A stretch of DNA of 46,524 nt. Origin: Gammaproteobacteria bacterium (lineage in GTDB: Bacteria; Pseudomonadota; Gammaproteobacteria; UBA4575). The stretch spans positions 1 to 46,524 of the forward strand of contig CBDCTA010000023.1 in the NCBI GenBank assembly GCA_965221955.1, in the 5' to 3' direction. Positions 10,651 through 23,398 of the stretch are shown piece by piece; within the stretch, counting starts at the first letter, position 1; each line of letters opens with the position of its first letter. Under the pieces are notes generated by a model, which was not told the origin of the DNA, made no database searches, and saw nothing but the letters and a program-made list of their open reading frames with translations. The position numbers were made by a program, and so were the translations under genes.

Positions 10651-10800
10651 ACCATGGATGGCGGAAGTGCAGAAATTGCACGGCTGCAAGGATGCGGGAG
10701 GTAGAGTAACGCAGGAGCAGTTGCCGAGGAGCAAATTTCTGTCGGCCAATTAGTGAGTACATGGAAGTACGAATAAGAGCTACAACAAGGATGTTGTATC
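10651..10800 (+). other. Cluster of GGA-loop hairpins (nested small repeat or CsrA/RsmA-binding RNA-like element)
   Basis: Eight GGA motifs in about 150 bp, several in short stems: ccATGGAtgg, gcAAGGAtgc, gcAGGAgc, gtacATGGAagtac, acaacAAGGAtgttgt. Confidence 0.55.
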
Positions 10801-10805
10801 AGATT
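10753..10805 (+). repeat. Left terminal inverted repeat (53 bp)
   Basis: gtgagtacatggaagtacgaataagagctacaacaaggatgttgtatcagatt; 42/53 identical by manual alignment to the reverse complement of 23323-23375. Confidence 0.85.
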
Positions 10806-10823
10806 AAAGTCAGTCTAAATTAA

Positions 10824-10853
10824 AATGTCCGCTTTCGGCCAAAAGCGGTCATT
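10824..10853. repeat. 30-bp palindromic site 1 (form A)
   Basis: aatgtccgcttt cggcca aaagcggtcatt. Confidence 0.93.
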
Positions 10854-10905
10854 AACGCTATGGTTCATTCACAACACATGCAACGTAGCGGTTGGAACCA
10901 ACTTG

Positions 10906-11325
10906 TTAGTTTTTATTCTCACACGTTTGTTTAACTCTTTCTGCAGGGATCTTTAACTGGGCAAATAGGTATTCCTTAAAGGAGTCCAGATATTGTTGAG
11001 CGTCAATAGCCTTTTGCATACAAAGAAGCCACGCATCTCGCTCTGTTTCCCCAATAGCCAAATGTTTATGCACCCCAGGAATACTGATTCCGCCATAATG
11101 TTGGTGATAAAGTTTTGGGCCTCCCAGCCATCCACAGAGAAAGTATGTTAATTTTTTGCGTGATTCGGTTAAATCTTGTGGGTGCATTTCTCTGATTGTT
11201 TTTGCTTCAGGAAATGTATCCATGTTTGAGAAAAAATTTTCCACGAGACATGTGATGCCAGCAAGTCTACCCGCCGCATTGTAAGAGTTATCTCTTATGC
11301 CATAGCTGTGCTCATTAAATTTCAT
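10906..11325 (-). CDS. Group II truncated hemoglobin (trHbO-like)
   Basis: LVENFF..M, KLTYFLCGWLGGP..Y, H..LAIGETERDAWLLCM; start likely MKFNEH at 11325 (ORF track start 11397 overlaps the neighbour). Confidence 0.85.
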   Translation of the reverse strand: MKFNEHSYGIRDNSYNAAGRLAGITCLVENFFSNMDTFPEAKTIREMHPQDLTESRKKLTYFLCGWLGGPKLYHQHYGGISIPGVHKHLAIGETERDAWLLCMQKAIDAQQYLDSFKEYLFAQLKIPAERVKQTCENKN

Positions 11326-11365
11326 GGTTTTAATTATATCTCTACATGGAACATGTTGAGTTATT

Positions 11366-11683
11366 TCAGTCTGTATCAATGATGTGACGCTCTGCAAATT
11401 CTATTATTTCTCCACACTTTAAATCTTGAATGTGTTCAGGATTATCTTCTAGCTGCCCTAAGAATTTATTATCTTGTACTAATAGGATTTCAACCCACAA
11501 TTGCTCATTACTTGATATTTTAGGATTATCACTTTTAAAATTAAACATGAGCTTTACTTTATGACCTTTCTCTAGTGGTTCAATGACATCTTTTGAAGGT
11601 TTAGAAAATTTATGTGGAACCTCATCTACCAGCTTTTGTGCATCTTCAAGATTCCAACTTTTATCCATCACTGTTTCTCTCAA
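11366..11683 (-). CDS. Small protein, DUF2314/DUF2185-like
   Basis: EQLWVEI...FLGQLEDNP..IQDLKCGEIIEF...HI pattern; family call from memory of the motif. Confidence 0.55.
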   Translation of the reverse strand: MRETVMDKSWNLEDAQKLVDEVPHKFSKPSKDVIEPLEKGHKVKLMFNFKSDNPKISSNEQLWVEILLVQDNKFLGQLEDNPEHIQDLKCGEIIEFAERHIIDTD

Positions 11684-11726
11684 TTTTTAGGGCAAAAACA
11701 TAAATAGCTACTAATTACATAACGAT

Positions 11727-11756
11727 AATGTCAGTCTTGTGCCGTTAACGCTCATT
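11727..11756. repeat. Site 2 (degenerate form B)
   Basis: aatgtcagtctt gtgccg ttaacgctcatt. Confidence 0.6.
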
Positions 11757-11779
11757 AAACTATTTCTTTAAGAGTGCTC

Positions 11780-12112
11780 TTAGTTGAGTTGGACCCATCC
11801 ACGAATTAAATCAAAATATATGAATTCCGCACCAATTGACTCAACCCTACGAACGTCACCATTATTTGGCATGTCATATTCTTCCAAGCCTTCCAAAGCA
11901 AGTGCGTTAGCCATTGCGGATTTTGGCTGCCGCTGGCTGGGAAGCTGCTCGAGATGTAGCTCTTCTGCAGTCCAGATCATTCCATCTCGTTCCATAGGTG
12001 ATGCCTTCGCAAAATCTGCAGAGAGAAATACAGCAGATGTGCCAGCCATTTTTTTGTAGACAGATGCAATCATAAAGAGCTTGCCTAACCTAATAGTGAG
12101 ATATATGGACAA
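11780..12112 (-). CDS. Hypothetical protein
   Basis: 110-aa ORF in array orientation between sites 2 and 3; true start may be the internal M (MIASVY). Confidence 0.6.
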   Translation of the reverse strand: MSIYLTIRLGKLFMIASVYKKMAGTSAVFLSADFAKASPMERDGMIWTAEELHLEQLPSQRQPKSAMANALALEGLEEYDMPNNGDVRRVESIGAEFIYFDLIRGWVQLN

Positions 12113-12283
12113 ACGGAGATTAAGCTTTCCTAAGCTAAAGTTTCTTGTTCTACCTCAGCTAATTGTTGGTTTCAGGTATAGAAAGAATAAAAATTCAACA
12201 TTTATGGAGGATATTTGCACTTTTTAACCAACCTCTATCATATCTCCTGTGTGTAGCTGGCTAAAGTTTATTGAAATTCTATG

Positions 12284-12313
12284 AATGTCTGCTTTCGGCC
12301 AATAGCGGACATT
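12284..12313. repeat. Site 3 (form A)
   Basis: aatgtctgcttt cggcca atagcggacatt. Confidence 0.93.
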
Positions 12314-12338
12314 AACAATTATGAAATCTCTGCAATCC

Positions 12339-12614
12339 TTAAGTTAACAGAATAAATGCCATTAACCAGATGATTATCGAACCAAATAAAAAGAATGTTG
12401 TATTTATTCCTTTTTTTACCACTGATTTTCTGAATACAACAATACCCATGCTAATGGACGCAATAATGGGGAAACCAATACTGCTGAACAAACCAAAAGG
12501 TCCTGGGATCACACCCATGCCAAACGTTGCAGCTTCTTTAGGCATCAGCATAAAACCCGCTGATATAATAACCAAATAACAAACTGAGCTAATTAACTGA
12601 AGCTTCCATTCCAT
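12339..12614 (-). CDS. Small membrane protein (about 3 TM)
   Basis: Hydrophobic 91-aa ORF between sites 3 and 4. Confidence 0.65.
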   Translation of the reverse strand: MEWKLQLISSVCYLVIISAGFMLMPKEAATFGMGVIPGPFGLFSSIGFPIIASISMGIVVFRKSVVKKGINTTFFLFGSIIIWLMAFILLT

Positions 12615-12698
12615 GTGTAATCACAACCTTTATAGCTCAGAATCGACTATTATCTTGTTTAAATACATCTCTAACCTACTACCTCATAGGCAAACTAT

Positions 12699-12728
12699 AA
12701 TGTCCGCTTTGTGTTGAAAGCAGTCACT
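12699..12728. repeat. Site 4 (variant form B)
   Basis: aatgtccgcttt gtgttg aaagcagtcact; overlaps the stop codon of the OsmC-family gene. Confidence 0.8.
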
Positions 12729-13216: not shown

Positions 13217-13246
13217 AATGTCCGTTTTCGGCCAATAGCGGATATT
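13217..13246. repeat. Site 5 (form A)
   Basis: aatgtccgtttt cggcca atagcggatatt. Confidence 0.9.
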
Positions 13247-13292: not shown

Positions 13293-14459
13293 CTATAAAC
13301 TATTAGCTTGACGTATCGCGATACGTGTAAATATAGGTCCGATTAATTCAAAAAAGATTGTAGTGCTAATGACTAAAGATATCAGCACTTGTTTATGCTC
13401 TGGAAAATAGTTGGATGCAACTAGCGCCATACCAATGGCAACACCTGCCTGAGGTAATAAAGCAACTCCCATCCAATTTTTAACAGTTTGATCAGACTTG
13501 CTTAATTGCCCGCCAACTCTTGCACCGATGACTTTTCCTATGCTTCTACTAAGTATATATACGATTCCAATCAGTCCAATGTCTGCAATCATTTTTAATT
13601 CAAGTGTAGCCCCTGCCAATACAAAGAAAATTACCATAAACGGCCATTCAATATTCTCAATTTCATGAAAAGCGTAGTCGTGATGCTTAGCAAAATTTGC
13701 AACGATTGCACCCATTACAATTGAAGCAATTAGAAAAGATACATCAAGCCAAAGTGCCAACCCTCCACAGATAAATACCAGGCCAAGCGCTTCTGTTAAT
13801 ATAGGCTCACCAGGTTTCAGTCTTCCCGTTAAATAGGCAGCAGGAAATCCGAGCAAGACTCCTAGAATAACAGCTCCACCAATATCTTTTAATGCTATGA
13901 CAATTAATGGACTGTCTGAGATCTCTCCACTAATTGACGTGGCTACTGCAACCCCTAAACCAAATAATATTAGCGCCCATGCATCATCCAAAGCGACAAT
14001 TGAAATTAGTAAATTACTAAATGGACTTTTATCATTAGATTCCATTACTACATCTAACGTAGCTGCTGGAGCAGTTGCACTCGCAATACAACCTAGCAGT
14101 ATGGATAGCTCTATTGGCAAACCGAGCCACATAAGGCCTATGGTCACAATGACTACTGTGAATACAGCAGCGCTTATTGAGATGGTAAGAATATTTTTTA
14201 TTCCGTGCGTGAGAGATTCTCTAGTGAGCTTTCCTCCTATCAAAAAACCAACCATTAATAGAGTCATCTCAGCAATAATTTCAAATTGTTGAGTAAAAAT
14301 TGGTGGAATAATATTGAAAGCTTCCTTCCCAATTAAGATACCAAATAACAAAAGAAGCGTAACACGTGGTAAAAATGTTCGACGGCCAAGAGTACTTATT
14401 ACTTGCCCAAAAAGAAGAATACCACCAAGTGATAAAAGAAATTGGTAGGCTGATTCCAT
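13293..14459 (-). CDS. Cation:proton antiporter (CPA/Na+/H+ exchanger family)
   Basis: About 12 TM; ASATAPAAT, VALDDA, FFVLAGA, LLPQAGVAIG motifs. Confidence 0.88.
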   Translation of the reverse strand: MESAYQFLLSLGGILLFGQVISTLGRRTFLPRVTLLLLFGILIGKEAFNIIPPIFTQQFEIIAEMTLLMVGFLIGGKLTRESLTHGIKNILTISISAAVFTVVIVTIGLMWLGLPIELSILLGCIASATAPAATLDVVMESNDKSPFSNLLISIVALDDAWALILFGLGVAVATSISGEISDSPLIVIALKDIGGAVILGVLLGFPAAYLTGRLKPGEPILTEALGLVFICGGLALWLDVSFLIASIVMGAIVANFAKHHDYAFHEIENIEWPFMVIFFVLAGATLELKMIADIGLIGIVYILSRSIGKVIGARVGGQLSKSDQTVKNWMGVALLPQAGVAIGMALVASNYFPEHKQVLISLVISTTIFFELIGPIFTRIAIRQANSL

Positions 14460-14486: not shown

Positions 14487-14516
14487 AATGTCCGCTTAGG
14501 GCCGTTAGTGGTCATT
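14487..14516. repeat. Site 6 (form B)
   Basis: aatgtccgctta gggccg ttagtggtcatt. Confidence 0.88.
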
Positions 14517-14542
14517 TTGAAGCTTTGTTTTGAAGATTCCAA
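14514..14542 (-). promoter_or_regulatory. Putative sigma70-like linker promoter
   Basis: Minus strand TTGGAA-17 bp-CAAAAT. Confidence 0.4.
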
Positions 14543-14569
14543 CTTTGTTTCTCCTTAAATTATTTTAAT

Positions 14570-14599
14570 TATGTCCGCTTTCGGCCAATAGCGGACATT
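14570..14599. repeat. Site 7 (form A)
   Basis: tatgtccgcttt cggcca atagcggacatt. Confidence 0.95.
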
Positions 14600-14972: not shown

Positions 14973-15776
14973 CTAACAGTTTGGCCTCTTGCCTTTTCCT
15001 CGTGCTTTTTTATAGGACAATAATGCCTGCGGCATGCGCGCATTTAAATCATTAATCCGAGATTGATTTGCTGGATGTGTGGACAGAAATTCAGGTGGTT
15101 GCTCACTACCTTGTTTAGACATGTTTTGCCACAATAAAACACTTTCACGAGGATCAAAACCTGCCATAGCCATATAGTCTAAACCCAAGATATCAGCTTC
15201 ACTTTCTTGCCCTCGCCCATAAGGCATCAATACGCCATATTGAGCACCTACACCAAGCAATCCCACTAAACGTTGTTTACCGGGTGTAGTTGCGCCTGCC
15301 ATAACTTCCACTAATTTTAAGCTTGCGCCTGTCGCATAAGCTGCAGATACACGTGCATTTGCATGTTCTGCAAGTACATGTGCTACCTCATGAGCAATAA
15401 CAGTAGCCAATTGATGTTGATTTTTTGTTACTTCCAATAATCCGGTATACACACCAATTTTGCCGCCCGGTAAAGCAAAAGCATTAACTGCCTTGTCTTG
15501 AAATACAATCACTTCCCATTGTGTATTTAGTCTTACTTCACGAGTAATTGCACTTGCTATACAACTCACATATCGATTTATTATTGCGTTTTTAGATTGT
15601 GGTGTTTTTTTCTTTAGATCTTCAAAAGCCGCAACGCCCATTTTATCCATTTGTTCTGCAGGGATAAGATGCAGTTGTGATCGACCAGTGGGCGAAGTCG
15701 CACAAGAATATATAGAAAGAATTAGTAAGAAAATTAATACAAGATATGTACTCAACGTACCTTTCATTACAAACAA
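14973..15776 (-). CDS. M48 family metallopeptidase (lipoprotein-like)
   Basis: Lipobox-like YSC, NAFALPGGKIGVYTGLL, AHEVAH (HExxH), ESEAD, FLSTHP. Confidence 0.92.
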   Translation of the reverse strand: MFVMKGTLSTYLVLIFLLILSIYSCATSPTGRSQLHLIPAEQMDKMGVAAFEDLKKKTPQSKNAIINRYVSCIASAITREVRLNTQWEVIVFQDKAVNAFALPGGKIGVYTGLLEVTKNQHQLATVIAHEVAHVLAEHANARVSAAYATGASLKLVEVMAGATTPGKQRLVGLLGVGAQYGVLMPYGRGQESEADILGLDYMAMAGFDPRESVLLWQNMSKQGSEQPPEFLSTHPANQSRINDLNARMPQALLSYKKARGKGKRPNC

Positions 15777-15777
15777 A

Positions 15778-16128
15778 TTAAGCGCTTAGTTTTTGAAATA
15801 CTTCGGCATGATATTTTAACCGTACATGCAGTTCTCTAGTTGGGTCCTCCAGGATATTACCAGTTAAAAACATTTCATCTTCATCATACTCACCTACTAA
15901 TTTGAGAATAAATTCCTCTAGTTTCCCAAATATTGGATTATATACACCATGATAGTGCTTTATATTAATAGTAGCATTGAAATTATTTCCCTTTAGATCA
16001 TAACTACCAACATAAAAATAGTTGTTATCACCCCCCAATATTTTCTTTTTCTCTAGAACGACAATTCCACCTCCTTCTGCGCTCATTTTTGAAACGAATT
16101 CTAGAGACCACAACTGCTCTAATGCCAT
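15778..16128 (-). CDS. GrlR-like small beta-barrel protein
   Basis: LWSLEF.S....GGGIVVL....ILGGD..YFY.GSY resembles the GrlR family pattern. Confidence 0.55.
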   Translation of the reverse strand: MALEQLWSLEFVSKMSAEGGGIVVLEKKKILGGDNNYFYVGSYDLKGNNFNATINIKHYHGVYNPIFGKLEEFILKLVGEYDEDEMFLTGNILEDPTRELHVRLKYHAEVFQKLSA

Positions 16129-16164
16129 TTTACAATTACCATGTTCACAATCATTGGTATCTAA

Positions 16165-16743
16165 CTAAGCGCTTTTAACTTCGATTGATCGCTTATTGCT
16201 TTTAGCCTCAATTGTTTTAGGTAGGGAAATATTTAGTACGCCCTTGGAATAGTTTGCATCAACTTTATTGTTATCCACACCGTTAGGCACACGAAATGTG
16301 CGTTGAAATGAGCCATAACTCCTTTCGCTTACGTGATAATTTTTCTTCTTTTCCTCACGCTCCGCTTTTTTCTCACCTTTTACAGTCAACGAATCATCAT
16401 TGAGAGACACTTCAATATCTTTTTCAGTCATGCCCGGCAATTCAACTGCTATCTCATAAGAATCATCACTCTCACTGACATCCACTCGTGGTGTTATGTC
16501 GAGTTTTGGCAACTTCAAATGACGTTCAAGATCTGCCATTGGATAGGTCCACCCTTTGCCAAATACTTTAGGTAAGCTTGGCCAATCTTCAGCAAAACGA
16601 TCAAAAATATTGTCCACTTCTTCACGCAATGTTACTAAAGGCGATATGACATCACCTTTTTTAGCAACAGACTTTCTAGATCTGGTCTTTCTCTTAGATG
16701 TTTTCTTCTTTTTTACAGGTACTTTTTTTGCTCTGCGCGCCAT
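16165..16743 (-). CDS. Small heat-shock protein (Hsp20/alpha-crystallin)
   Basis: PRVDVSE, VELPGM, LTVKGEK, ERSYGSFQRTF, A.YSKGVLNISLPK; start MARRAKK at 16743 with GGAG RBS. Confidence 0.92.
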   Translation of the reverse strand: MARRAKKVPVKKKKTSKRKTRSRKSVAKKGDVISPLVTLREEVDNIFDRFAEDWPSLPKVFGKGWTYPMADLERHLKLPKLDITPRVDVSESDDSYEIAVELPGMTEKDIEVSLNDDSLTVKGEKKAEREEKKKNYHVSERSYGSFQRTFRVPNGVDNNKVDANYSKGVLNISLPKTIEAKSNKRSIEVKSA

Positions 16744-16814
16744 TACTGCTTCTCCTTTTGATTGTTTGTAACTAATAATTTTGTCGTAATTTAGGGTTAC
16801 AGCATTGATCTTAG

Positions 16815-17060
16815 TCAAATTAATACATTGTTTTTCCATAAAACGAATAAATGACAATTTAATAACATTTCCATCATTGGCACGCACACCTTAGATATTT
16901 CTGATTTTTCATTTTCAGGTGGAGTAACACTAGGTGGAAGTGCGGGTATTACATTCATTGGAGATATTTCTACAGGTACAGAATCCGAGCTTGGTTGATC
17001 TGTGAAATAAACTTCCCCATTAGGCCTACATGTCTTTACAATTGATGCGCACAGGCGCAA
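16815..17060 (-). pseudogene. DUF4124-like fragment
   Basis: KTCRPNGEVYFTDQP followed by a Pro-rich linker; no signal peptide, TTG start, appears truncated. Confidence 0.4.
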
Positions 17061-17120: not shown

Positions 17121-17150
17121 AATGTCCGCTTTCGGCCAATAGCGGACATT
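17121..17150. repeat. Site 8 (form A, consensus)
   Basis: aatgtccgcttt cggcca atagcggacatt. Confidence 0.96.
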
Positions 17151-17596
17151 TACTTTTTCTGAATGTCATGTTCCAAGATAGCCAAAATGGCAGCTTCTAC
17201 TCTCGAGTCATCGTTCATATGAAATATATTATTCTTTTCTCTATGCTCAGTTATTTCAATGACACCATCAACATCATAGACATTATATGAAGGACGATCA
17301 TTCTTTCTTCCTAAGGACAAATCATCAAGATAATATGGACGTGTACCAATTCTTTGCCCGGTTACTTGATTAACTTTCTTATTGTTTAAATATATTTTGA
17401 ATACTGCTTCTGTGAGATAGTAATCAACTGATACGCTAATTTTATCGCGATCATTTTCTTCAGCTATTTCATCAAAGAACTTTGGTACTCGAGAATCATC
17501 AGCTAAATCGAAACTAGACTCGGGGAAACACCCAAATAGCGTAATAACCAAGAAGATTATTAAATATATTTTAATATTTAATTTTATATAAAACAC
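17150..17596 (-). CDS. Putative lipoprotein
   Basis: Hydrophobic N-terminus with LFGC lipobox; fills the interval between sites 8 and 9. Confidence 0.75.
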   Translation of the reverse strand: MFYIKLNIKIYLIIFLVITLFGCFPESSFDLADDSRVPKFFDEIAEENDRDKISVSVDYYLTEAVFKIYLNNKKVNQVTGQRIGTRPYYLDDLSLGRKNDRPSYNVYDVDGVIEITEHREKNNIFHMNDDSRVEAAILAILEHDIQKK

Positions 17597-17615: not shown

Positions 17616-17645
17616 AATGTCCGCTTTGGGTCGTTAGCAGTCATT
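17616..17645. repeat. Site 9 (form B, consensus)
   Basis: aatgtccgcttt gggtcg ttagcagtcatt. Confidence 0.96.
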
Positions 17646-18210
17646 CAATAGATTTATTGCCGTAATATGGCACTAAGCATTCATTTTTCATTGCATCTAA
17701 TGCATAGGAAAGGCCTTTGAGGCTGTAAGAGTACTCATGTAACCCGTTTTTATCACGATATCTAACATTTATAATTTTTGCATTTATCATTTCTTTAATG
17801 AGCCATCTTGATCTAACTGTGCTGATTAAATTTGGTGAGTAATCATTAACAAACCATTCTAAATTTAGTGGCGCTTGTTCATCTAGCTGAATAACCATCG
17901 GCACAACTTCTGGATCTATTAATTCAATAGGTTGGCCATTATTTAAATGTATATCATATCCTTCGTGTTGACTTATTCCTGAACTACAATAAATTTGCAG
18001 TATTGGGAGATTATTTGGATTCTTAAGTTGTGGTACTGCAATCATCGCCTGATTAGGGAAAGCAGGATTTAGCATTAATGACCAATCAGTTTGCGTCGCC
18101 CAATCATTTTCAAGACCAGGATCAACAGGTTGATTATTTTGATTAGTCTCAGTGCTTGCAGAACATTGGAATGCACACATAAAAAGAACAAAAAATAATA
18201 GTATTTTCAT
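17641..18210 (-). CDS. Secreted hypothetical protein
   Basis: Signal peptide MKILLFFVLFMCAFQCSA; TGA stop lies inside site 9. Confidence 0.78.
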   Translation of the reverse strand: MKILLFFVLFMCAFQCSASTETNQNNQPVDPGLENDWATQTDWSLMLNPAFPNQAMIAVPQLKNPNNLPILQIYCSSGISQHEGYDIHLNNGQPIELIDPEVVPMVIQLDEQAPLNLEWFVNDYSPNLISTVRSRWLIKEMINAKIINVRYRDKNGLHEYSYSLKGLSYALDAMKNECLVPYYGNKSIE

Positions 18211-18257: not shown

Positions 18258-18527
18258 CTAGACTTTGACTGTTTTTGCAATGTCATAGTATTTACCAGTC
18301 AAGTCCGTGCTCAATTTTCCAGTTTCAACCGCATTTAAAAATTCTTCTGGAAACTTATCTTTACCAAGAATAAATAATTGACTATTAATATCCTGCAAAT
18401 ATCTATCTCTAACTTTTTCAATTTTATTCTCATCATGCTCCATCCATGCGGCTTTTTTATCGTTATAGAAACATAATTCGTTGAGTAGCTTCATTAGCTT
18501 TCTTTTCTTGAAATAGCTAATAATCAT
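18258..18527 (-). CDS. Hypothetical protein
   Basis: 89-aa ORF exactly filling the interval between sites 10 and 11. Confidence 0.7.
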   Translation of the reverse strand: MIISYFKKRKLMKLLNELCFYNDKKAAWMEHDENKIEKVRDRYLQDINSQLFILGKDKFPEEFLNAVETGKLSTDLTGKYYDIAKTVKV

Positions 18528-18596: not shown

Positions 18597-18626
18597 TATG
18601 TCTCCTTTCGGCAAATAGCAGTCATT
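18597..18626. repeat. Site 12 (degenerate form A)
   Basis: tatgtctccttt cggcaa atagcagtcatt. Confidence 0.82.
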
Positions 18627-19095
18627 CAGTAAGTGAAACTTTTTCACCATTTTTGAATAAGATATCAGTGCTTCCATCTCTATTTCGATCAAGCATTTCT
18701 AGTACGTCGCCTTGTTCATTCTCGACAACATTTACTATTTGCTCAAAATACCCATCCCCATCTATGTCACTAACAGAGATAGCATCACCATCTGAGAATC
18801 TCACTACGACATAGCTATCAGACAATGTAACCGAGTAGTCTTCATCGTAGATATAAAGCATTTTAGGGCCACCAGCTTTCTTTGGCCCATATAATTTCAA
18901 ATCGCTAATTTTGGTAGTGATCAAATCACTCAGTTGATAATCGAGGTGCATAGAACTTGAAAGCTCTTTTTTATTACGCTCGCTTAACTCTTGCCAGTTA
19001 ACATCATTTTGATTTTTACCATATATCCAGCCACCAACCGCAGATATACCTGAAACTGAAACTAAAACTAGTGCAATTATATTGATTGTTTTCAT
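18622..19095 (-). CDS. Membrane-anchored/secreted hypothetical protein with DxDGDG-type motifs
   Basis: N-terminal TM; DIDGDG and DRNRDG motifs; stop inside site 12. Confidence 0.72.
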   Translation of the reverse strand: MKTINIIALVLVSVSGISAVGGWIYGKNQNDVNWQELSERNKKELSSSMHLDYQLSDLITTKISDLKLYGPKKAGGPKMLYIYDEDYSVTLSDSYVVVRFSDGDAISVSDIDGDGYFEQIVNVVENEQGDVLEMLDRNRDGSTDILFKNGEKVSLTE

Positions 19096-19319: not shown

Positions 19320-20312
19320 TTAATAGCCATTATTTAACATCCAGTTATTCAATGGGAGTACCAATACTTTTAAATGCTCGTGATTGACTGTTTTAGCAAG
19401 TACTTTTTCAGGATAAGGATAGACGGCCCATGCACGATCAAAGTACTCTTGAGCTTCTTCTTTGTTTGGTGAACTTTCTAAAAGTTTCGCCCACTTAACA
19501 AACAAAGCACAACCAAGTGTAAAACGTGCACCACCATAGTTCATGCGTGTTAATGCTTCCTCAGCATATTCAATTGCTCCATCAATGTCTTGGTAAGTAA
19601 AAAGTAAAAAATTTGCATAATTTCCCCATATCCATGCAGAGTTAGGATTATTCTCAAGCTGATTTCTATAAGCTGTATCAGTACTATCATAATCACCCAT
19701 CTTCCAATATGTGCTTGTAATACCTTCTAAAGCTCCTGCATAAGCTTTTTCATTATTAGTCCCTTTTTCAATAACATTTTGGTAGCGTTCTAATGCTTCA
19801 GAATATTTCCCTTGTATATCTAAAAGCCGTGCCCAGTTAATTTCCAGCCAAGGTGATTCTGTGCCAATACGCTCTGCACTCGTTAGTGATAAGTCTGCAT
19901 AACCAAACTCTTTCATCGCAATATAAACGGATGCTAATAAAACATATGCGTCTGCGTAATGAGGCTCGATTTCTAATGCCCTTTTGACAGATTTTTCAGC
20001 AGCGAGCAGGCTCTCTTCTCTATAATTATCATAATTAATATAGCCACTCATTAAGTGGAGCCTTCCATACTCTCTATGTACAGGCGCAAATTGCTCGTCT
20101 TTAGCAAGAATTACTTCGAGCATAATATACGCCTTTTGGAGATCCTCTCTCCTTCCAGTGTAAGAATTTATAAGTATTCGCGCAGCATCATAGCTTTCAA
20201 ATAATTCAGGACTTTTTTCTCGATATTTCTGATCGATTGGGGAATTCCAAAATTCAGCACTTGCTGAAGTGACGCATAGAATTAATAGTAATACTAAGAA
20301 TTTACCAGCCAT
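19320..20312 (-). CDS. Secreted tetratricopeptide-repeat protein
   Basis: Signal peptide; repeated A...Y..ALE..P..A.A patterns. Confidence 0.82.
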   Translation of the reverse strand: MAGKFLVLLLILCVTSASAEFWNSPIDQKYREKSPELFESYDAARILINSYTGRREDLQKAYIMLEVILAKDEQFAPVHREYGRLHLMSGYINYDNYREESLLAAEKSVKRALEIEPHYADAYVLLASVYIAMKEFGYADLSLTSAERIGTESPWLEINWARLLDIQGKYSEALERYQNVIEKGTNNEKAYAGALEGITSTYWKMGDYDSTDTAYRNQLENNPNSAWIWGNYANFLLFTYQDIDGAIEYAEEALTRMNYGGARFTLGCALFVKWAKLLESSPNKEEAQEYFDRAWAVYPYPEKVLAKTVNHEHLKVLVLPLNNWMLNNGY

Positions 20313-20597: not shown

Positions 20598-20627
20598 AAT
20601 ATCCGCTTTCGGCCAATAGTGGTCATT
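20598..20627. repeat. Site 14 (form A)
   Basis: aatatccgcttt cggcca atagtggtcatt. Confidence 0.9.
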
Positions 20628-20631: not shown

Positions 20632-21009
20632 TTATGCGAGTTTCTTTGCTACAAATGGAGACAATAATAATGACATGCCTAACAATAAATACTTGAATAT
20701 TGGTGTACCAATTAACTCAAAGCCTTTATGCCCAATAAAAGGTAACAACAGAACACTACCAAGCATCCAGATAGCAAAAGCTAACGTGAAACAAGCTAAT
20801 ATAATCTTAAACACTCTAAAATTACCATTCTTCTTGTTTGAGCCTTTGCTAAGCAATACACCAATTATAGCTATGCCCATCAAAACAATGCCAAATGTAG
20901 AATATAATAAGACATTTACTTGTTCTGGATATTTAAAATTTAGGAACGAAATCATTAACAGATAAGAAACTGCCAATGCAGCAATAAATATCAGATTTCT
21001 TTTATTCAT
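20632..21009 (-). CDS. Membrane protein (about 4 TM)
   Basis: Hydrophobic ORF filling the interval between sites 14 and 15. Confidence 0.75.
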   Translation of the reverse strand: MNKRNLIFIAALAVSYLLMISFLNFKYPEQVNVLLYSTFGIVLMGIAIIGVLLSKGSNKKNGNFRVFKIILACFTLAFAIWMLGSVLLLPFIGHKGFELIGTPIFKYLLLGMSLLLSPFVAKKLA

Positions 21010-21154: not shown

Positions 21155-21397
21155 TTACAAATTTTTGTTTTTTCGTGAACCCTCAAACAAAATAAGTAAT
21201 GCCATAGCCGCCCAAATAATGGTTAATAAGATAAATGCTCCACGGTTAGAATTGAAGCATGCTATATCATCACTTCTCCAATTGGGTAAGCTAATGCAAA
21301 AATCATTGTAATCGTCATAGGAAAGAAAAATAACAAAAACGTACACTGCTACAGCGAAAAGAAATCCTATAATATTTCTTTTCTTAGGAATCTTCAT
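21155..21397 (-). CDS. Small membrane protein (2 TM, loop with two Cys)
   Basis: 80-aa ORF between sites 16 and 17. Confidence 0.7.
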   Translation of the reverse strand: MKIPKKRNIIGFLFAVAVYVFVIFLSYDDYNDFCISLPNWRSDDIACFNSNRGAFILLTIIWAAMALLILFEGSRKNKNL

Positions 21398-21528: not shown

Positions 21529-21534
21529 CATGCG

Positions 21535-21894
21535 TCATTGATCAGATGTGTTTGCAGGACGAAACTCTTCAAAAATCTGCTTGTAGTGTTTGGCCTTATC
21601 TTCGTTTATCTCAAAATACCAACAACCTTTTAAATAACAAAGCGCGAGTACATGAGCAGCCCTATAGTTATTTAAATCTCCTGCTTTAATCAGCCATTCA
21701 CGTGCTTCATCCATCTCATCTATTGTAGGAGGTGTTTGGCTATCTACACGTTCTGCAACACCTAACCACAAATTATACATCGCTTCTGAATTGCCTTGAT
21801 TAGCAAGATTAATTAAATGCTTTGTATCTTTATCATCATGAGAATTACTCGCTAATGGAATACAAATTAAAATTAGAAATAAAATAAATTTCAT
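21535..21894 (-). CDS. Secreted Sel1-like repeat protein
   Basis: Signal peptide; LANQGNSEAMYNL, AREWLIKAG, LALCYLKG, KAKHY. Confidence 0.75.
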   Translation of the reverse strand: MKFILFLILICIPLASNSHDDKDTKHLINLANQGNSEAMYNLWLGVAERVDSQTPPTIDEMDEAREWLIKAGDLNNYRAAHVLALCYLKGCWYFEINEDKAKHYKQIFEEFRPANTSDQ

Positions 21895-21914
21895 CTAACT
21901 AATCTAAAATTACT

Positions 21915-21944
21915 AATGTCCGCTTTGGGTCGTAAGTGGTCATT
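21915..21944. repeat. Site 19 (form B)
   Basis: aatgtccgcttt gggtcg taagtggtcatt. Confidence 0.93.
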
Positions 21945-21970
21945 TTAAGTTTGAAGTTTATTGATTCCAA
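21942..21970 (-). promoter_or_regulatory. Putative sigma70-like linker promoter
   Basis: TTGGAA-17 bp-TAAAAT. Confidence 0.5.
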
Positions 21971-21987
21971 CACTTTGCACCCCTAAA

Positions 21988-22017
21988 TTTGTCTGCTTTC
22001 GGCCAATAGCGGACATT
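21988..22017. repeat. Site 20 (form A)
   Basis: tttgtctgcttt cggcca atagcggacatt. Confidence 0.92.
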
Positions 22018-22022
22018 CACAG

Positions 22023-22487
22023 CTAGAGGACAATATCTTTCTCCATCACGGATACTGAATGACCTTGCCACTCGGTACGTTCTCGCACAACCCAATTAAG
22101 TTTAGAATAAAATTCTTCTGAATCGGGCGTGTAAAGAAATAATTTGCTCACTCCTAATCGTGCTGCTTTATCCTCAATAGCAAAAACAAGCTTTTTACCA
22201 ACCCCCTTTTTTCTATGCTTTGTATCTACATACAAACCCGCCAACCATGGACTTAGGTTTGGGCGTGATCCAAGATCATTTGTCTTTAAAGCAATCATCC
22301 CTATTGCTTTATCGTTTTCAAATGCTACTAAACAAAGTGGTATTTTCTCTTTATTGGATCTCTCCAGCATTAATTGCTCGACATCTGAAAGTGTTCTTTC
22401 AGGATGAAGATTTGACCATTCGTTATATGACCAGTTAGCAAGAGTTGGAATGACGTTTTTATGATCTGCTAAGTACTCTATTTCCAT
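22023..22487 (-). CDS. GNAT family N-acetyltransferase
   Basis: PWLAGLYVDTKHRKKGVGKKL (acetyl-CoA motif A), LFLYT...FYSKLNW. Confidence 0.9.
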   Translation of the reverse strand: MEIEYLADHKNVIPTLANWSYNEWSNLHPERTLSDVEQLMLERSNKEKIPLCLVAFENDKAIGMIALKTNDLGSRPNLSPWLAGLYVDTKHRKKGVGKKLVFAIEDKAARLGVSKLFLYTPDSEEFYSKLNWVVRERTEWQGHSVSVMEKDIVL

Positions 22488-22530
22488 TGCTTGTTATTGA
22501 AACAATTATATGTGTAAAAACTGTCAGTTG

Positions 22531-22560
22531 AATGTCCGCTTTGGGTCGTTAGCGGTCATT
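22531..22560. repeat. Site 21 (form B)
   Basis: aatgtccgcttt gggtcg ttagcggtcatt. Confidence 0.95.
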
Positions 22561-22612
22561 AAACTATGTTGTTTTGAGATTTCCAACCTGATTTCCCTTT
22601 AATGAATTAAAT

Positions 22613-22642
22613 TATGTCAGCTTTCAGTCAATAGCGGACATT
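22613..22642. repeat. Site 22 (form A variant)
   Basis: tatgtcagcttt cagtca atagcggacatt. Confidence 0.85.
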
Positions 22643-22653
22643 ATTGGATTACT

Positions 22654-22863
22654 CTAGTCGCTAATTTTTTGCTTCTTCCTAAAATACCATTCAGCAACAA
22701 ACCAGATAGCAACTCCAATAATTACTAAATAAAGATTATCGAGAAATCCCGCATAAGTTCTTACAGATTCACAGCCAGAATCATCGCATACAATTTCACT
22801 AGATTTAATGAATACTCCTATACAGATAAGAATAAATATTAGTAATCTGCTTAGAACTTTCAT
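22654..22863 (-). CDS. Small membrane protein (2 TM, CDDSGC loop)
   Basis: 69-aa ORF filling the interval between sites 22 and 23. Confidence 0.68.
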   Translation of the reverse strand: MKVLSRLLIFILICIGVFIKSSEIVCDDSGCESVRTYAGFLDNLYLVIIGVAIWFVAEWYFRKKQKISD

Positions 22864-22880
22864 TACTTTAAAGTTTGTTC

Positions 22881-22910
22881 AATGTCCGCCTTGGGTCGTT
22901 AGCAGACATT
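22881..22910. repeat. Site 23 (form B)
   Basis: aatgtccgcctt gggtcg ttagcagacatt. Confidence 0.93.
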
Positions 22911-22936
22911 TTAAGTTTATAGATCATTGAATCCAA
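22908..22936 (-). promoter_or_regulatory. Putative sigma70-like linker promoter
   Basis: TTGGAT-17 bp-TAAAAT. Confidence 0.5.
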
Positions 22937-22953
22937 CACATTGTGTCCATTGT

Positions 22954-22983
22954 TTTATCCGCTTACGACCATAAGCGGACATC
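22954..22983. repeat. Site 24 (A orientation, hybrid core)
   Basis: tttatccgctta cgacca taagcggacatc. Confidence 0.85.
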
Positions 22984-22994
22984 TGTTATTAGTT

Positions 22995-23264
22995 TTATTG
23001 ATTGAAAATCTTATAGCAAACATAGGCTGCTATTAACCATATATAGAAAGCTAATAAAGAGACGTTATAAATCTTACGTGCTTTTTGGCCTGTTTCATTT
23101 AATGCATCGGTTTTAAAAATTGGCAAAATATTAATGACAGCTAAACCTTTTTGTTCATCGACATTATTTAAAACAGTCAGGTAAGCACTGAAATATGAAA
23201 CAGCGATAATTATTAATGAAATAGCAAATAGTCCTATTAATATCGTTGAAATTAAATCAATCAT
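22995..23264 (-). CDS. Small membrane protein (2 TM)
   Basis: 89-aa ORF filling the interval between sites 24 and 25. Confidence 0.68.
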   Translation of the reverse strand: MIDLISTILIGLFAISLIIIAVSYFSAYLTVLNNVDEQKGLAVINILPIFKTDALNETGQKARKIYNVSLLAFYIWLIAAYVCYKIFNQ

Positions 23265-23274
23265 AGATTAGATA

Positions 23275-23304
23275 AATGTCCGCTTTGGGTCGATAGCAGT
23301 CATT
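23275..23304. repeat. Site 25 (form B)
   Basis: aatgtccgcttt gggtcg atagcagtcatt. Confidence 0.95.
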
Positions 23305-23322
23305 CTATTAAAAGAAATATTG

Positions 23323-23375
23323 AATCTGAAGCAACCTCCTTGTTACATCTCATGTTCGCCCATCCATGTACTCAC
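23323..23375 (-). repeat. Right terminal inverted repeat (53 bp)
   Basis: Reverse complement gtgagtacatggatgggcgaacatgagatgtaacaaggaggttgcttcagatt matches 10753-10805. Confidence 0.85.
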
Positions 23376-23398
23376 ACTTTGGGTCGTTAGCTATCATT
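23369..23398. repeat. Site 26 (form B, left arm truncated by the terminal repeat)
   Basis: (tactca)cacttt gggtcg ttagctatcatt, followed by a linker giving TTGGTG-17 bp-TAAAAT on the minus strand. Confidence 0.75.

What the first reader, a model, noticed from the sequence alone, without database searches (positions are those of the whole stretch)
10753..23398. Candidate new gene-cassette system: about 20 co-oriented genes partitioned by 26 copies of a 30-bp palindromic site
Seen: 26 copies of AATGTCCGCTTT-N6-WWAGCRGWCATT start at 10824, 11727, 12284, 12699, 13217, 14487, 14570, 17121, 17616, 18228, 18538, 18597, 19105, 20598, 21021, 21094, 21416, 21499, 21915, 21988, 22531, 22613, 22881, 22954, 23275 and 23369. 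I saw none elsewhere in the window. Nearly every long interval holds one unrelated ORF, and all credible ORFs are on the minus strand. Known: integron arrays have this one-gene-per-site layout, but attC sites need RYYYAAC...GTTRRRY ends and an IntI, and neither is present. RDD and lptG are neighbours in other gammaproteobacteria such as Pseudomonas, so the array interrupts core synteny. Inference: a gene-capture and shuffling platform that uses a non-attC site and a recombinase supplied in trans.
Basis: partly seen in the sequence, partly recalled or inferred. Interest (0 to 1): 0.95.

Follow-up and report, generated by a model that had tools for sequence, protein, structure and literature searches.

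The report
Palindrome-bounded single-gene cassette arrays, no integrase
A stretch of about twenty small accessory genes, each boxed in by copies of a conserved 30-base palindrome, sits between two core genes; it is one of about 49 such loci in this genome, and no known recombinase goes with them.

Summary
The other two are a degenerate copy and a half-site. Chance expectation is 0.

It is not one platform. The genome holds 188 sites in 49 clusters, and this is the largest.

- Sites come in two types, A and B, often as B-spacer-A doublets.
- The usual unit in gene sense is B'-ORF-A' (48 of 70 cassettes). The median gap is 30 nt from site to start codon and 8 nt from stop codon to site.
- The whole array (10753-23375) is bracketed by inverted copies of a 53-nt two-hairpin element. 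I call it the C element; the genome has 62 copies.
- Two co-assembled haplotypes of this locus, and of a second locus, differ by whole cassettes with breakpoints at sites.
- The RDD-lptG gap is 23 bp in one congener and 13.2 kb here.
- The same cassettes lie at other loci in relatives.
- The site core recurs in Alpha-, Beta- and Gammaproteobacteria, and in genome bins labelled Udaeobacter and Terriglobales.

None of the families I searched tracks the sites: integron integrase, RAYT/Y1, IS110, TnpB, rve, DDE_Tnp_1, Transposase_31, or extra tyrosine or serine recombinases.

Best reading (0.5): a REP/MITE-like modular cassette system recombining at the sites, enzyme unknown. Main rival (0.3): REP-like regulatory repeats plus homologous recombination.

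The parts
9193..10110 (-). xerD, a core flank gene and not part of the element
   Evidence: NCBIfam TIGR02225 XerD, 402 bits against a cut-off of 330. dsbC lies next to it at 8300-9031.
10202..10630 (+). RDD-like membrane ORF; left core flank
Evidence: ORF. Its relatives (58-74% identity by tblastn) adjoin the variable interval in 7 congener stretches (in G007 the contig ends before lptG).
10733..10752 (+). Left half-site: degenerate left arm plus an A-type loop, abutting the tip of the left C element
   Evidence: Read directly from the sequence. The same arrangement occurs at other modules.
10753..10805 (-). Left C element, a 53-nt two-hairpin repeat in inverted orientation; its outer tip begins the module
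   Evidence: nhmmer E 3.2e-12. Its tip is the exact reverse complement of the right-hand tip.
10824..10853 (+). Site, type A
   Evidence: 0 mismatches.
10906..11397 (-). Cassette ORF, bacterial-like globin
   Evidence: PF01152, E 2.4e-22.
11366..11683 (-). Cassette ORF, DUF2314
   Evidence: PF10077, E 9e-8.
11727..11756 (+). Degenerate B-like site
   Evidence: the repeat finder family D1, 63% identity. Below the mismatch thresholds.
11780..12112 (-). Cassette ORF, 110 aa, no family
12284..12313 (+). Site, type A. Haplotype breakpoint: the homology with C14 ends here.
12339..12614 (-). Cassette ORF, 91 aa, no family
12699..12728 (+). Site, type B with a variant loop; overlaps the OsmC stop codon
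12728..13162 (-). Cassette ORF, OsmC-like. Homologous cassettes lie at other loci in G007, G014 and G011.
   Evidence: PF02566.
13217..13246 (+). Site, type A
13293..14459 (-). Cassette ORF, Na+/H+ exchanger family
   Evidence: PF00999.
14487..14599 (+). Doublet: B (14487-14516), spacer, A (14570-14599)
14973..16887 (-). Three-ORF block with no internal site: M48 peptidase (14973-15776), 116-aa ORF (15778-16128), HSP20 (16165-16887)
   Evidence: PF01435 and PF00011. The block is conserved at other loci in G002, G004, G022 and G015.
17121..17150 (+). Site, type A
   Evidence: 0 mismatches.
17150..17596 (-). Cassette ORF, 148 aa
   Evidence: no family above cut-off.
17616..17645 (+). Site, type B
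17641..18210 (-). Cassette ORF, 189 aa
18228..18257 (+). Site, type B
18258..18527 (-). Cassette ORF, 89 aa
18538..18626 (+). Doublet: B (18538-18567) and variant A (18597-18626), 59-nt spacing
18622..19095 (-). Cassette ORF, 157 aa
19105..19134 (+). Site, type B
19320..20312 (-). Cassette ORF, TPR protein, flanked by a 131-nt direct repeat (19154-19284 and 20460-20590)
   Evidence: Pfam TPR families; repeat family D7.
20598..20627 (+). Site, type A
20632..21009 (-). Cassette ORF, 125 aa
21021..21123 (+). Doublet B + A, 73-nt spacing
21155..21397 (-). Cassette ORF, 80 aa
21416..21528 (+). Doublet B + A, 83-nt spacing
   Evidence: Folds either as two local hairpins or as one long hairpin.
21535..21894 (-). 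Cassette ORF, 119 aa
21915..22017 (+). Doublet B + A, 73-nt spacing. The spacer holds the only hexamer pair in a doublet that passed the promoter scan (minus strand, 21970-21942).
22023..22487 (-). Cassette ORF, GNAT acetyltransferase
   Evidence: PF00583. A homologous stretch lies at G022:C1:2082557.
22531..22642 (+). Doublet B + A, 82-nt spacing
22654..22863 (-). Cassette ORF, 69 aa
22881..22983 (+). Doublet B + variant A, 73-nt spacing
22995..23264 (-). Cassette ORF, 89 aa; not scanned against Pfam
23275..23304 (+). Terminal site, type B. Haplotype breakpoint: the homology with C14 resumes at 23272.
23323..23375 (+). Right C element; the module ends at 23375
   Evidence: nhmmer E 4.5e-11.
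23369..23398 (+). Right half-site: B-type loop plus right arm, following the C tip.
23470..23505 (+). Partial extra C element copy
   Evidence: nhmmer E 1.7e-5.
23502..23846 (-). 114-aa membrane-like ORF outside the module. No relative was found in the six congener intervals.
   Evidence: no tblastn hit; no NCBIfam hit.
23880..24989 (-). lptG; right core flank
   Evidence: TIGR04408, 350 bits against a cut-off of 240.

Best explanation
Window 10753-23375 is the largest of about 49 loci built from one family of repeats.

**What it is (shown).** Each accessory gene is packaged as a module. In gene sense the module is a B-type palindrome, a short leader, one ORF, then an A-type palindrome right after the stop codon. 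Modules stand alone or in head-to-tail arrays. Isolated modules and many arrays are bracketed by inverted copies of a 53-nt two-hairpin 'C element'. The whole thing sits in intergenic gaps between core genes.

**How it works (inferred).** Modules are gained, lost and moved between loci by recombination at the A/B palindromes. The palindromes act as portable, sequence-specific joints. Their arms are kept nearly invariant across classes and phyla, probably because a trans-acting factor recognises them, either as duplex or as a hairpin. That factor has not been identified. It belongs to none of the recombinase or transposase families searched.

The conserved spacer upstream of B' may also give each module its own promoter, and A' may act as a 3' end hairpin. 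This is inferred and weakly supported.

The system is integron-like in outcome (single-gene cassettes in co-oriented arrays). It is REP/BIME/MITE-like in its parts.
For: **The sites are real and non-random**
- The window holds 36 strand matches against 0 in shuffles.
- The genome holds 188 sites in 49 clusters, against 0 in the shuffled genome.

**Module anatomy**
- In 76 of 85 inter-site intervals the longest ORF is antisense to the site orientation.
- 48 of 70 single-ORF cassettes are B'-ORF-A'. The median is 30 nt from site to start codon and 8 nt from stop codon to site. In 43 of 70 the stop-to-site gap is 15 nt or less.
- 27 of 32 doublets run B then A, mostly at 73 or 83 nt spacing.

**C elements**
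- There are 62 copies.
- Both stems show compensatory changes. Pair 12-21 is AT in 17, TA in 15 and GC in 2 of 35 sequences. Pair 38-47 is AT in 10, GC in 9 and CG in 7 of 35.
- 15 two-ended modules span 179 bp to 12.6 kb.
- 27 of 49 clusters have a C element at or near an end.

**Variation at the sites**
- Contigs C14 and C23 are 99% identical in their flanks but differ by whole cassettes, with homology ending at sites.
- The same holds for C10 against C29.

**Insertion into core synteny**
- The RDD-lptG gap is 23 bp in G001, 0.8 to 6.1 kb in five congeners, and 13.2 kb here.
- At a second locus (C22, about 23.3-25.7 kb) the interval is 2.4 kb here and 0.3 to 1.4 kb in five congeners. G011, G007 and G014 show no site and no C element there.

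**Modules recur elsewhere with homology limited to site-ORF-site**
- The OsmC module is in G007, G014 and G011.
- An M23-like module is duplicated within G000 at 90.6% amino-acid identity.
- Five cassettes or blocks of this array are scattered over the G022 chromosome.

**Conservation**
- The motif is in 14 of 14 congeners and 20 of 24 genomes of the family.
- Exact matches occur in at least 118 stretches from other classes and phyla, which also show A-like and B-like loops and B-then-A doublets.
- A complete alphaproteobacterial chromosome carries 87 sites, with about 29 in one 43-kb stretch.
- Congener G013 has 1 good site, and degenerate copies at the RDD-lptG locus. This fits a constraint that can be lost.
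Against: **No enzyme found**
- IntI is below cut-off.
- Y1/RAYT: 0 in G000, 8 of 56 in the family, and 0 of 5 in other site-bearing genomes. There are no sites near six Y1 genes.
- IS110 C-terminal domain: 0, searched in G000 only.
- Serine recombinases are in 14 of 56 genomes and are absent from site-rich complete genomes G001 and G014. The copy in G000 sits next to a terminase gene.
- rve is in 3 of 15 genomes of the genus, and DDE_Tnp_1 in 2 of 15.
- Transposase_31 and the TnpB Zn-ribbon domain are in 0 of 15.
- The site-rich complete genomes G010 and G074 have 3 and 2 tyrosine recombinases. In G010 two of the three are the XerD and XerC relatives. For G074 this is presumed, not checked.

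**No direct sign of a site-specific mechanism**
- No circular or excised form was seen. The joints in laid contigs have sides of 22-35 nt inside the repeat and are not usable.
- The arms show almost no compensatory change. Pair 5-26 has A-T in 6 of 170 sequences, and pair 7-24 has T-A in 8 of 170.
- There is no covariation within doublets: 11 compatible against 13 incompatible.
- The one informative junction places the crossover in the right arm, not the centre.
- No target duplication is visible at module ends.

**Regulatory roles are weakly supported**
- The generic promoter scan is not enriched: 35 found against 49 expected. Terminator-like sites are 8 against 6.7 expected.

**A simpler route exists**
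- Sites of 30 bp and doublets of about 110 bp could serve as substrates for ordinary homologous recombination.
Confidence: 0.5

Rival explanations
1. These are ordinary REP/BIME-like extragenic palindromes with a regulatory or structural role, such as mRNA 3' end protection, termination or promoters. They pile up in hypervariable intergenic regions. Cassette-level differences arise from RecA-dependent recombination and horizontal transfer that use the repeats as portable homology. There is no dedicated recombination system.
For: - The distribution is genome-wide, with 15 single sites and 17 pairs.
- A' lies a median of 8 nt after stop codons.
- A conserved motif sits 24-25 nt upstream of B' in 28 of 84 B sites, against 2 of 74 A sites. 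It has promoter-like spacing.
- In Alphaproteobacteria the sites form BIME-like tandem sets at 45-nt spacing.
- None of the recombinase families searched co-occurs.
- The one mapped crossover lies in an arm, as homologous exchange would allow.
Against: - The same 22 specified bases, and the same two loop types, are kept from 38% G+C gammaproteobacteria to 57-65% G+C alphaproteobacteria and beyond. A generic hairpin function does not need that.
- The distribution is patchy. Only 10 of 400 sampled genomes of the phylum have 3 or more sites per strand, and 1 has 10 or more.
- Modules recur at unrelated loci with homology confined to site-ORF-site. That leaves only about 30 imperfect bases of homology per side.
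- Generic promoter and terminator scans are not enriched.
- No RAYT is present, unlike classical REPs.
Confidence: 0.3
2. The modules are mobile insertion cassettes. The inverted C elements are the terminal repeats of a non-autonomous transposon that carries passenger genes. A transposase supplied in trans, or now lost, moves it. The A/B palindromes are internal features.
For: - 15 modules are bounded by inverted C copies, with exactly complementary tips in this window.
- 'Empty' modules of 179 and 216 bp exist.
- At the second locus, G000 carries a C-bounded module while G011, G007 and G014 show no site and no C element in the same interval.
Against: - No target duplication is seen.
- None of the transposase families searched (rve, DDE_Tnp_1, TnpB, Transposase_31, Y1; the IS110 domain in G000 only) tracks the sites in the genus or in site-rich complete genomes.
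- Only 56 of 188 sites lie inside two-ended modules, and 22 of 49 clusters have no C element nearby.
- Within-genome duplication and between-haplotype variation occur at A/B sites, not at C ends.
- C elements were not looked for outside this family.
Confidence: 0.1
3. This is an atypical integron remnant: a cluster of attC-like sites without an integrase. Each A'-spacer-B' doublet (about 89-125 nt) is one attC-like folded site. An integron integrase acts from elsewhere, or acted in the past.
For: - The layout matches: one ORF per cassette, co-oriented, with the site starting right after the stop codon.
- The doublet has two 'simple sites' that can pair into one long imperfect hairpin. That fold was the minimum-energy fold for 1 of the 3 doublets folded in gene sense, and for the plus-strand fold of a second.
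- The outer arms are better conserved than the inner arms: C-G in 23 of 27 doublets.
Against: - No IntI is present in G000: the best score is 83 bits against a cut-off of 265.
- The attC end motifs are absent by inspection.
- 124 of the 188 sites stand as single 30-nt sites, too short for an attC by recalled size limits.
- There are 49 loci rather than one platform.
- Inner arms do not covary within a doublet.
- The attC covariance model of IntegronFinder could not be run here.
Confidence: 0.05
4. These are XerC/XerD-dependent modules, like the dif modules of Acinetobacter plasmids. The palindromes would be dif-like sites used by the host Xer recombinases.
For: - XerC and XerD relatives are the only tyrosine recombinases shared by the gammaproteobacterial genomes checked.
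- xerD lies next to this array.
- The sites have a layout of two arms and a 6-10 bp centre.
Against: - The genome has one canonical dif at C4:89618. Single canonical dif sites are also in G010, G014, G001 and G019. The A/B arms share nothing with dif.
- The sites are co-oriented, not alternating.
- xerD-dsbC is ordinary core synteny. The other 48 clusters are not next to xer genes.
- G013 keeps both Xer genes while its sites decay.
Confidence: 0.05

Closest known systems
Integron cassette arrays, including sedentary chromosomal integrons and integrase-less attC clusters (CALINs)
   Same: - Single promoter-poor ORFs sit head to tail, all co-oriented.
- A recombination-site-like repeat starts within a few bases of each stop codon.
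- The cargo is diverse: GNAT, OsmC, globin, small membrane proteins.
- The array interrupts core synteny and differs between close strains.
   Different: - No integron integrase is present.
- The sites are 30-nt sequence-conserved palindromes of two types, not structure-defined attC sites with the RYYYAAC and GTTRRRY ends.
- There are about 49 loci per genome instead of one platform with attI and Pc.
- Arrays have inverted terminal elements.
REP / BIME / REPIN elements with RAYT transposases
   Same: - They are short extragenic palindromes in about 100-200 copies.
- They combine with fixed spacers into mosaic doublets (triplets in Alphaproteobacteria).
- They lie just after stop codons.
   Different: - No RAYT is found in G000, in 13 of 14 congeners, or in 5 other site-bearing genomes.
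- Doublets are same-polarity B then A, not inverted pairs.
- The core sequence is shared across classes and phyla, whereas REPs are usually lineage-specific (recalled).
- The sites are tightly tied to the boundaries of accessory genes.
MITEs and mobile insertion cassettes (MICs)
   Same: - Inverted terminal repeats (the C elements) bracket short empty units or units with passenger genes.
- No transposase lies inside.
   Different: - No target duplication is seen.
- None of the transposase families searched tracks the sites.
- The internal A/B sites, not the termini, are where content varies.
- The termini are two covarying hairpins rather than plain repeats.
dif modules (XerC/XerD sites flanking gene modules on Acinetobacter plasmids)
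   Same: - Sites of about 28-30 bp, with two arms and a short centre, cut DNA into small gene modules.
- The recombinase would be supplied by the host.
   Different: - The sites have no likeness to this genome's own dif.
- They are co-oriented rather than alternating.
- They are chromosomal and in many loci.
IS200/IS605-type elements and their palindrome-associated derivatives (PATEs)
   Same: - Each unit has a hairpin at each end with the same polarity.
- There are no terminal inverted repeats at the unit level and no target duplication.
- Orientation is biased with respect to replication: 80 of 99 sites in G010.
   Different: - No Y1 transposase or TnpB co-occurs.
- The Y1 genes present in the family have no sites nearby.
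- The orientation bias may only reflect gene strand bias.

Membership tests
Integron | Integron integrase (IntI) in the genome | tested here: not met
   TIGR02249 best hit 83 bits against a cut-off of 265. The hits are XerD, the XerC-like gene and a phage-type integrase.
Integron | attC sites with RYYYAAC and GTTRRRY ends, recognised by fold | tested here: not met
   By inspection of the sites, the nearest is a 5-of-7 match inside the B site. The attC covariance model was not available. The motif definition is taken from the finding and from recall.
Integron | One co-oriented ORF per cassette, with the site directly after the stop codon | tested here: met
   76 of 85 intervals are antisense to the site orientation. 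The median stop-to-site gap is 8 nt in 70 cassettes.
Integron | A single platform with an attI site and a common promoter | tested here: not met
   49 clusters are spread over 18 contigs.
REP/REPIN-RAYT | Short extragenic imperfect palindromes in high copy number | tested here: met
   188 sites.
REP/REPIN-RAYT | A RAYT (Y1_Tnp) gene in the genome, flanked by the repeats | tested here: not met
   PF01797: 0 in G000, 8 of 56 in the family, 0 of 5 other site-bearing genomes. No sites lie within 1.5 kb of six Y1 genes.
REP/REPIN-RAYT | Doublets made of two inverted repeats (REPIN) | tested here: not met
   27 of 32 doublets are same-polarity B then A.
XerCD dif modules | Sites resemble the host dif (XerC arm, 6 bp, XerD arm) | tested here: not met
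   A canonical dif lies at G000 C4:89618, and single canonical dif sites were found in four relatives. The A/B arms are unrelated.
XerCD dif modules | XerC and XerD present | tested here: met
MITE / mobile insertion cassette | Terminal inverted repeats around a unit without a transposase | tested here: met
   15 modules are bounded by inverted C elements.
MITE / mobile insertion cassette | Target-site duplication | tested here: not met
   No direct repeat is visible at the 15 pairs of module ends. This was by eye only.
MITE / mobile insertion cassette | A cognate transposase somewhere in the genome or lineage | tested here: not met
   In the genus: rve 3 of 15, DDE_Tnp_1 2 of 15, Transposase_31 0 of 15, TnpB Zn-ribbon 0 of 15. 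In G000: IS110 domain 0. Other transposase families were not searched.
IS200/IS605-type (PATE) | Y1 HUH transposase acting on end hairpins | tested here: not met
Curated RNA families (Rfam 15) | A match to any covariance model | tested here: not met
   The only match is a chance-level one, E 0.29. There are no matches at gathering scores in the window or in six alphaproteobacterial loci.

The most novel reading that the evidence does not exclude
This would be a previously unrecognised gene-cassette system with no integrase.

- It has two conserved site types, A and B, and structured terminal elements.
- It is spread patchily across Proteobacteria and beyond.
- It is served by an undiscovered site- or hairpin-specific recombinase or host factor.
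- It moves single genes between dozens of small chromosomal platforms per genome.
Probability: 0.3. Interest if true: 0.9.

Novelty: new variant of a known kind. Interest (0 to 1): 0.7.

Why it matters
Integrons are the textbook way bacteria stockpile and shuffle single genes. Here the same outcome appears without an integrase and without attC sites. The joints are a sequence-conserved palindrome that recurs from marine gammaproteobacteria to soil alphaproteobacteria.

If a dedicated factor recognises these sites, it would be a new recombination system. It could also become a new tool. If none does, the system would show how far simple repeats plus general recombination can go towards modular genomes.

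Either way the sites mark accessory-gene hot spots directly in raw sequence. They also break assemblies: several arrays here lie at contig ends or in haplotype bubbles.

Tried and rejected
**Leads that gave nothing**
- Rfam: only a chance-level match (E 0.29) and none at gathering scores.
- Literature, search listings only:
  - Two sequence-string searches returned only unrelated papers.
  - 'gene cassettes + extragenic palindromic + integron' returned clinical typing papers.
  - 'mobile insertion cassette / passenger gene / MITE' returned papers on known MICs. None was opened.
  - My statement that this system is not in print rests on these four searches alone. Supplements were not seen.
- Sequencing runs: no RNA holder was listed. 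The laid runs are low-depth contigs. Their joints have sides of 22-35 nt inside the repeat, and loose ends at sites are what any dispersed repeat would give. I draw nothing from them.
- Plasmids: no match to a doublet.
- Viral contigs: 21 stretches carry the motif, mostly within a few hundred bases of a contig end. I read these as host flanks or assembly breaks and did not follow them up.

**Ideas considered and dropped**
- Serine recombinase. From memory, the arms resemble resolvase-type half-sites, and the 26-28 bp symmetric layout would suit a serine recombinase. I dropped this because serine recombinases are absent from site-rich complete genomes.
- Hybrid-site model (A and B as attL/attR-like products of two parental sites). 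The type-level asymmetry fits: the T-G variant is in 23 of 80 A sites, and the C-A variant in 38 of 90 B sites. There is no within-doublet covariation, and the predicted parental loops are not among the common loops.
- Mini-ORF reading of the sites. Judged coincidental.
- Replication-strand bias as evidence for a single-strand mechanism. 80 of 99 sites in G010 are oriented so that cassette genes run with the fork. The sites are clustered, and ordinary gene strand bias may explain this.
- Search for a recurrent enzyme gene near the sites:
  - Clustering ORFs from 118 foreign loci gave ABC substrate-binding paralogues and spurious repeat-encoded ORFs, but no recombinase.
  - The large ORFs in and beside seven G000 arrays showed no recurrent family by all-against-all BLAST. 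They were not scanned against Pfam.

Full report
**1. The observation**

All matches lie between 10824 and 23304. None appeared in 100 dinucleotide-preserving shuffles.

A scan of the 28-nt core at up to 4 mismatches finds 24 sites on this contig. Of the other two:
- 11727 is a degenerate copy.
- 23369 is only the loop and right arm of a site, fused to another repeat.

All interval-filling ORFs are on the minus strand. No site lies elsewhere in the window.

**2. Anatomy of the sites**

The sites are of two types.
- Type A is a near-perfect palindrome. Its commonest 10-nt centre occurs in 38 of 80 A sites.
- Type B has the same left arm, another centre (the commonest in 42 of 90 B sites), and a right arm that often differs at two positions.

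There are 32 doublets in the genome. 27 of them run B then A on the strand where the conserved left arm reads first. Start-to-start spacings cluster at 73 nt (11 doublets) and 83 nt (10 doublets).

Genes lie on the opposite strand.
- In 76 of 85 inter-site intervals of 200-3000 bp, the longest ORF is antisense to the site orientation.
- Of 70 intervals with one ORF filling at least half, 48 read in gene sense as B', ORF, A'.
- The median is 30 nt from the upstream site to the start codon and 8 nt from the stop codon to the downstream site. In 43 of 70 the second gap is 15 nt or less.
- The median interval is 518 bp and the median ORF 122 aa.

The cargo in the window is diverse. It includes a globin, DUF2314, OsmC, a Na+/H+ exchanger, an M48 peptidase with HSP20, a TPR protein, a GNAT and many small ORFs without a family. 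G+C in the array is 34-38%, against 39-43% in the flanks.

**3. A third repeat brackets the array**

A 53-nt element has 62 copies by iterated nhmmer. I call it the C element. It stands in inverted orientation at 10753-10805 and 23323-23375, and the 12-nt outer tips are exact reverse complements.

It has two short hairpins with compensatory changes.
- Pair 12-21 is AT in 17, TA in 15 and GC in 2 of 35 distinct full-length copies.
- Pair 38-47 is AT in 10, GC in 9 and CG in 7 of 35.
- Both loops read TCCN. On the other strand this gives a GGA-containing loop. From memory, this is the kind of motif bound by CsrA/RsmA. I did not test it.

Fifteen modules are bounded by inverted C copies. They range from 179 bp with no good site to the 12.6-kb module of this window with 25 sites.

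Of the 49 site clusters, 27 have a C element within 400 nt of an end or inside. Among the 17 clusters with three or more sites, 12 do.

Outside each C tip there is often half of a site: arm plus loop on the left, loop plus arm on the right. No target duplication is visible by eye.

**4. It is genome-wide**

The assembly is 2.69 Mb in 29 contigs, 38.6% G+C, 96.6% complete and 4.3% contaminated. It holds 188 distinct sites at 12 bits or more, against 0 in a shuffled genome.

The sites form 49 clusters when gaps of up to 3 kb are allowed:

| Cluster size (sites) | Number of clusters |
|---|---|
| 1 | 15 |
| 2 | 17 |
| 3 | 6 |
| 4 to 25 | 11 |

The window's array is the largest. So this is not one platform. 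Most sites nevertheless still flank small ORFs rather than simply trailing core genes.

**5. Variation and mobility**

The assembly contains two versions of this locus. Contig C14 matches C23 at 98.7-99.5% identity over three stretches:
- 1-10848
- 10824-12315
- 23272-27587

Each homology block ends at a site. C14 has one extra cassette after the first site. It has two other cassettes where C23 has 11 kb.

At the first junction, the C23 site combines the centre of one C14 site with the right end of the next. That places this crossover in the right arm.

A second pair, C10 against C29:132-136 kb, behaves the same way.

Among congeners the interval between RDD and lptG varies widely:

| Genome | RDD-lptG interval |
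|---|---|
| G001 | 23 bp |
| G002 | 0.8 kb |
| G013 | 1.75 kb |
| G010 | 2.9 kb |
| G011 | 5.4 kb |
| G014 | 6.1 kb |
| G000 (this window) | 13.2 kb |

At another locus G000 has a C-bounded module. G011, G007 and G014 show no site and no C element in the same interval.

Cassettes of this array have relatives at unlinked places.
- In the complete genome G022, five cassettes or blocks lie at five separate positions.
- The OsmC cassette aligns in four genomes from the B site to the A site and not beyond.
- An M23-like cassette is present twice in G000, at 90.6% amino-acid identity. The DNA homology is limited to B', ORF and A'.

**6. Distribution**

- With up to 2 mismatches, the motif is in 14 of 14 other genomes of the genus and 20 of 24 of the family.
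- It is in 2 of 16 genomes from other families of the class. One of those has a single hit.
By record title these come from Pseudolabrys, Xanthobacteraceae, Hyphomicrobiales, Rhizobium, Agrobacterium vitis, Sphingomonas, Lysobacter soli, Pseudomonas, Nitrosomonadaceae, Coxiellaceae, Thiotrichales, Candidatus Udaeobacter, Terriglobales and others.
- In the high-G+C genomes the arms are the same and A-like and B-like centres recur. Sites stand in tandem sets at 45-nt spacing, B before A.
- A complete alphaproteobacterial chromosome has 87 sites. About 29 of them lie in one 43-kb stretch at 1-2 kb spacing.
- By a crude coding-strand call, 35 of 50 intervals in such loci are antisense to the sites.
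- In an even sample of 400 other genomes of the phylum, 40 have at least one arm match and 10 have three or more per strand. One has ten or more. The reversed control pattern hit about 15 genomes once each.

The family is therefore patchy but very widely spread.

Congener G013 has a single good site. It has degenerate copies beside an intact C element at the RDD-lptG locus.

**7. Search for the enzyme**

- **Integron integrase.** None in G000.
- **Tyrosine recombinases in G000.** The four are XerD (window 9193-10110, beside dsbC), its haplotype copy on C14, an XerC-like gene, and one phage-type integrase.
- **Tyrosine recombinases in site-rich complete genomes.** G010 has three and the alphaproteobacterium G074 has two.
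- **Y1/RAYT.** Absent from G000. Present in 8 of 56 genomes of the family, and in 0 of 5 other site-bearing genomes. Six Y1 loci have no sites.
- **IS110 domain.** PF02371 is absent from G000.
- **Serine recombinases.** They occur in 14 of 56 genomes and not in G001 or G014. The G000 copy is a 540-aa enzyme near a terminase gene.
- **Other transposase families in the genus.**
  - rve is in 3 of 15 genomes.
  - DDE_Tnp_1 is in 2 of 15.
  - Transposase_31 is in 0 of 15.
  - The TnpB Zn-ribbon domain is in 0 of 15.
- **Multi-copy insertion sequences.** None shows up in the self-comparison.
- **dif.** The genome has a canonical dif unrelated to the sites.
- **Recurrent neighbour genes.** No recombinase-like family recurs in the foreign loci. 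No family recurs among the large ORFs beside the arrays.

**8. Structure and expression clues**

The arms pair over nine positions but show almost no compensatory change. Doublets can fold as two hairpins or as one long hairpin.

A conserved motif lies 24-25 nt upstream of B' in 28 of 84 B sites, against 2 of 74 A sites. A hexamer resembling a -10 box follows 17 nt later, at the edge of B'. The generic promoter and terminator scans are not enriched, and only one doublet passes.

In G010, 80 of 99 oriented sites place the cassette genes co-directional with replication. I inferred the replichores from dnaA at 1.976 Mb and dif at 0.624 Mb. The sites are clustered, and this may reflect ordinary gene strand bias.

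**9. Reading**

Shown:
- A modular, repeat-bounded packaging of single accessory genes.
- Many loci per genome, with cassette-level variation at the repeats.
- Insertion into core synteny, and recurrence of modules elsewhere.
- Cross-phylum conservation of the joint sequence.

Inferred:
- Recombination at the sites moves the modules.
- A trans-acting factor constrains the sequence.
- The spacer and sites may also drive and end transcription.

I put 0.5 on a site-directed cassette system with an unknown enzyme. I put 0.3 on REP-like elements plus homologous recombination. Smaller weights go to a C-bounded transposon, an attC-like remnant and Xer use.

I file it as a new variant of known kinds (REP/BIME/MITE parts with an integron-like outcome). 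It is not a member of any family listed, because a defining feature of each was tested and not met.

Noticed in passing
window 10640-10752: Downstream of the RDD-like gene lies a G+C-richer stretch with several short hairpins whose loops contain GGA. The same place in G002 has a similar stretch. It could be a CsrB/Rsm-type small RNA or decayed C elements. Rfam gave only a chance-level match nearby (E 0.29).
   Followed up: partly
G000 contigs C14 vs C23, C10 vs C29, also C8/C18, C11/C26, C12/C13, C1/C25/C29: The assembly holds pairs of contigs at 97-99.8% identity. It therefore mixes at least two close strains. This fits the 4.3% contamination estimate. Repeat arrays sit at several of these bubbles and at contig ends.
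   Followed up: partly
window 19154-19284 and 20460-20590: A 131-nt direct repeat (70% identity) flanks the TPR cassette on both sides. It is a different repeat from the A, B and C elements.
   Followed up: no
window 14600-14972: About 370 nt between the A site at 14570 and the M48 gene hold only short broken frames on both strands. This may be a decayed cassette.
   Followed up: no
G000 C2:220260-220330 and G007 locus L151: Another dispersed repeat, about 70-90 nt and G+C-richer than its surroundings, occurs next to a site in G000 and in the 'empty' C22 locus of G007.
   Followed up: no
G000 C26:24488-25642 and C29:202067-203222: A 384-aa membrane protein is present twice at 99.7% DNA identity. 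From its histidine motifs I take it to be desaturase- or alkane-hydroxylase-like; it was not scanned against Pfam. An ABC-type substrate-binding protein is also duplicated (C26:55534, C29:454582).
   Followed up: no
loci L013-L130 (high-G+C genomes): The ORF family found most often beside the sites in soil alphaproteobacterial bins is an ABC-transporter substrate-binding paralogue (45 ORFs in 26 loci). The tandem sites there also produce spurious ORFs with a recurring peptide.
   Followed up: partly
G013 (congener), locus L142: This genome keeps a well-scoring C element (E 1e-15), but its A/B sites are degenerate, and only one good site was found genome-wide. It could serve as a natural negative in a search for the factor.
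   Followed up: partly
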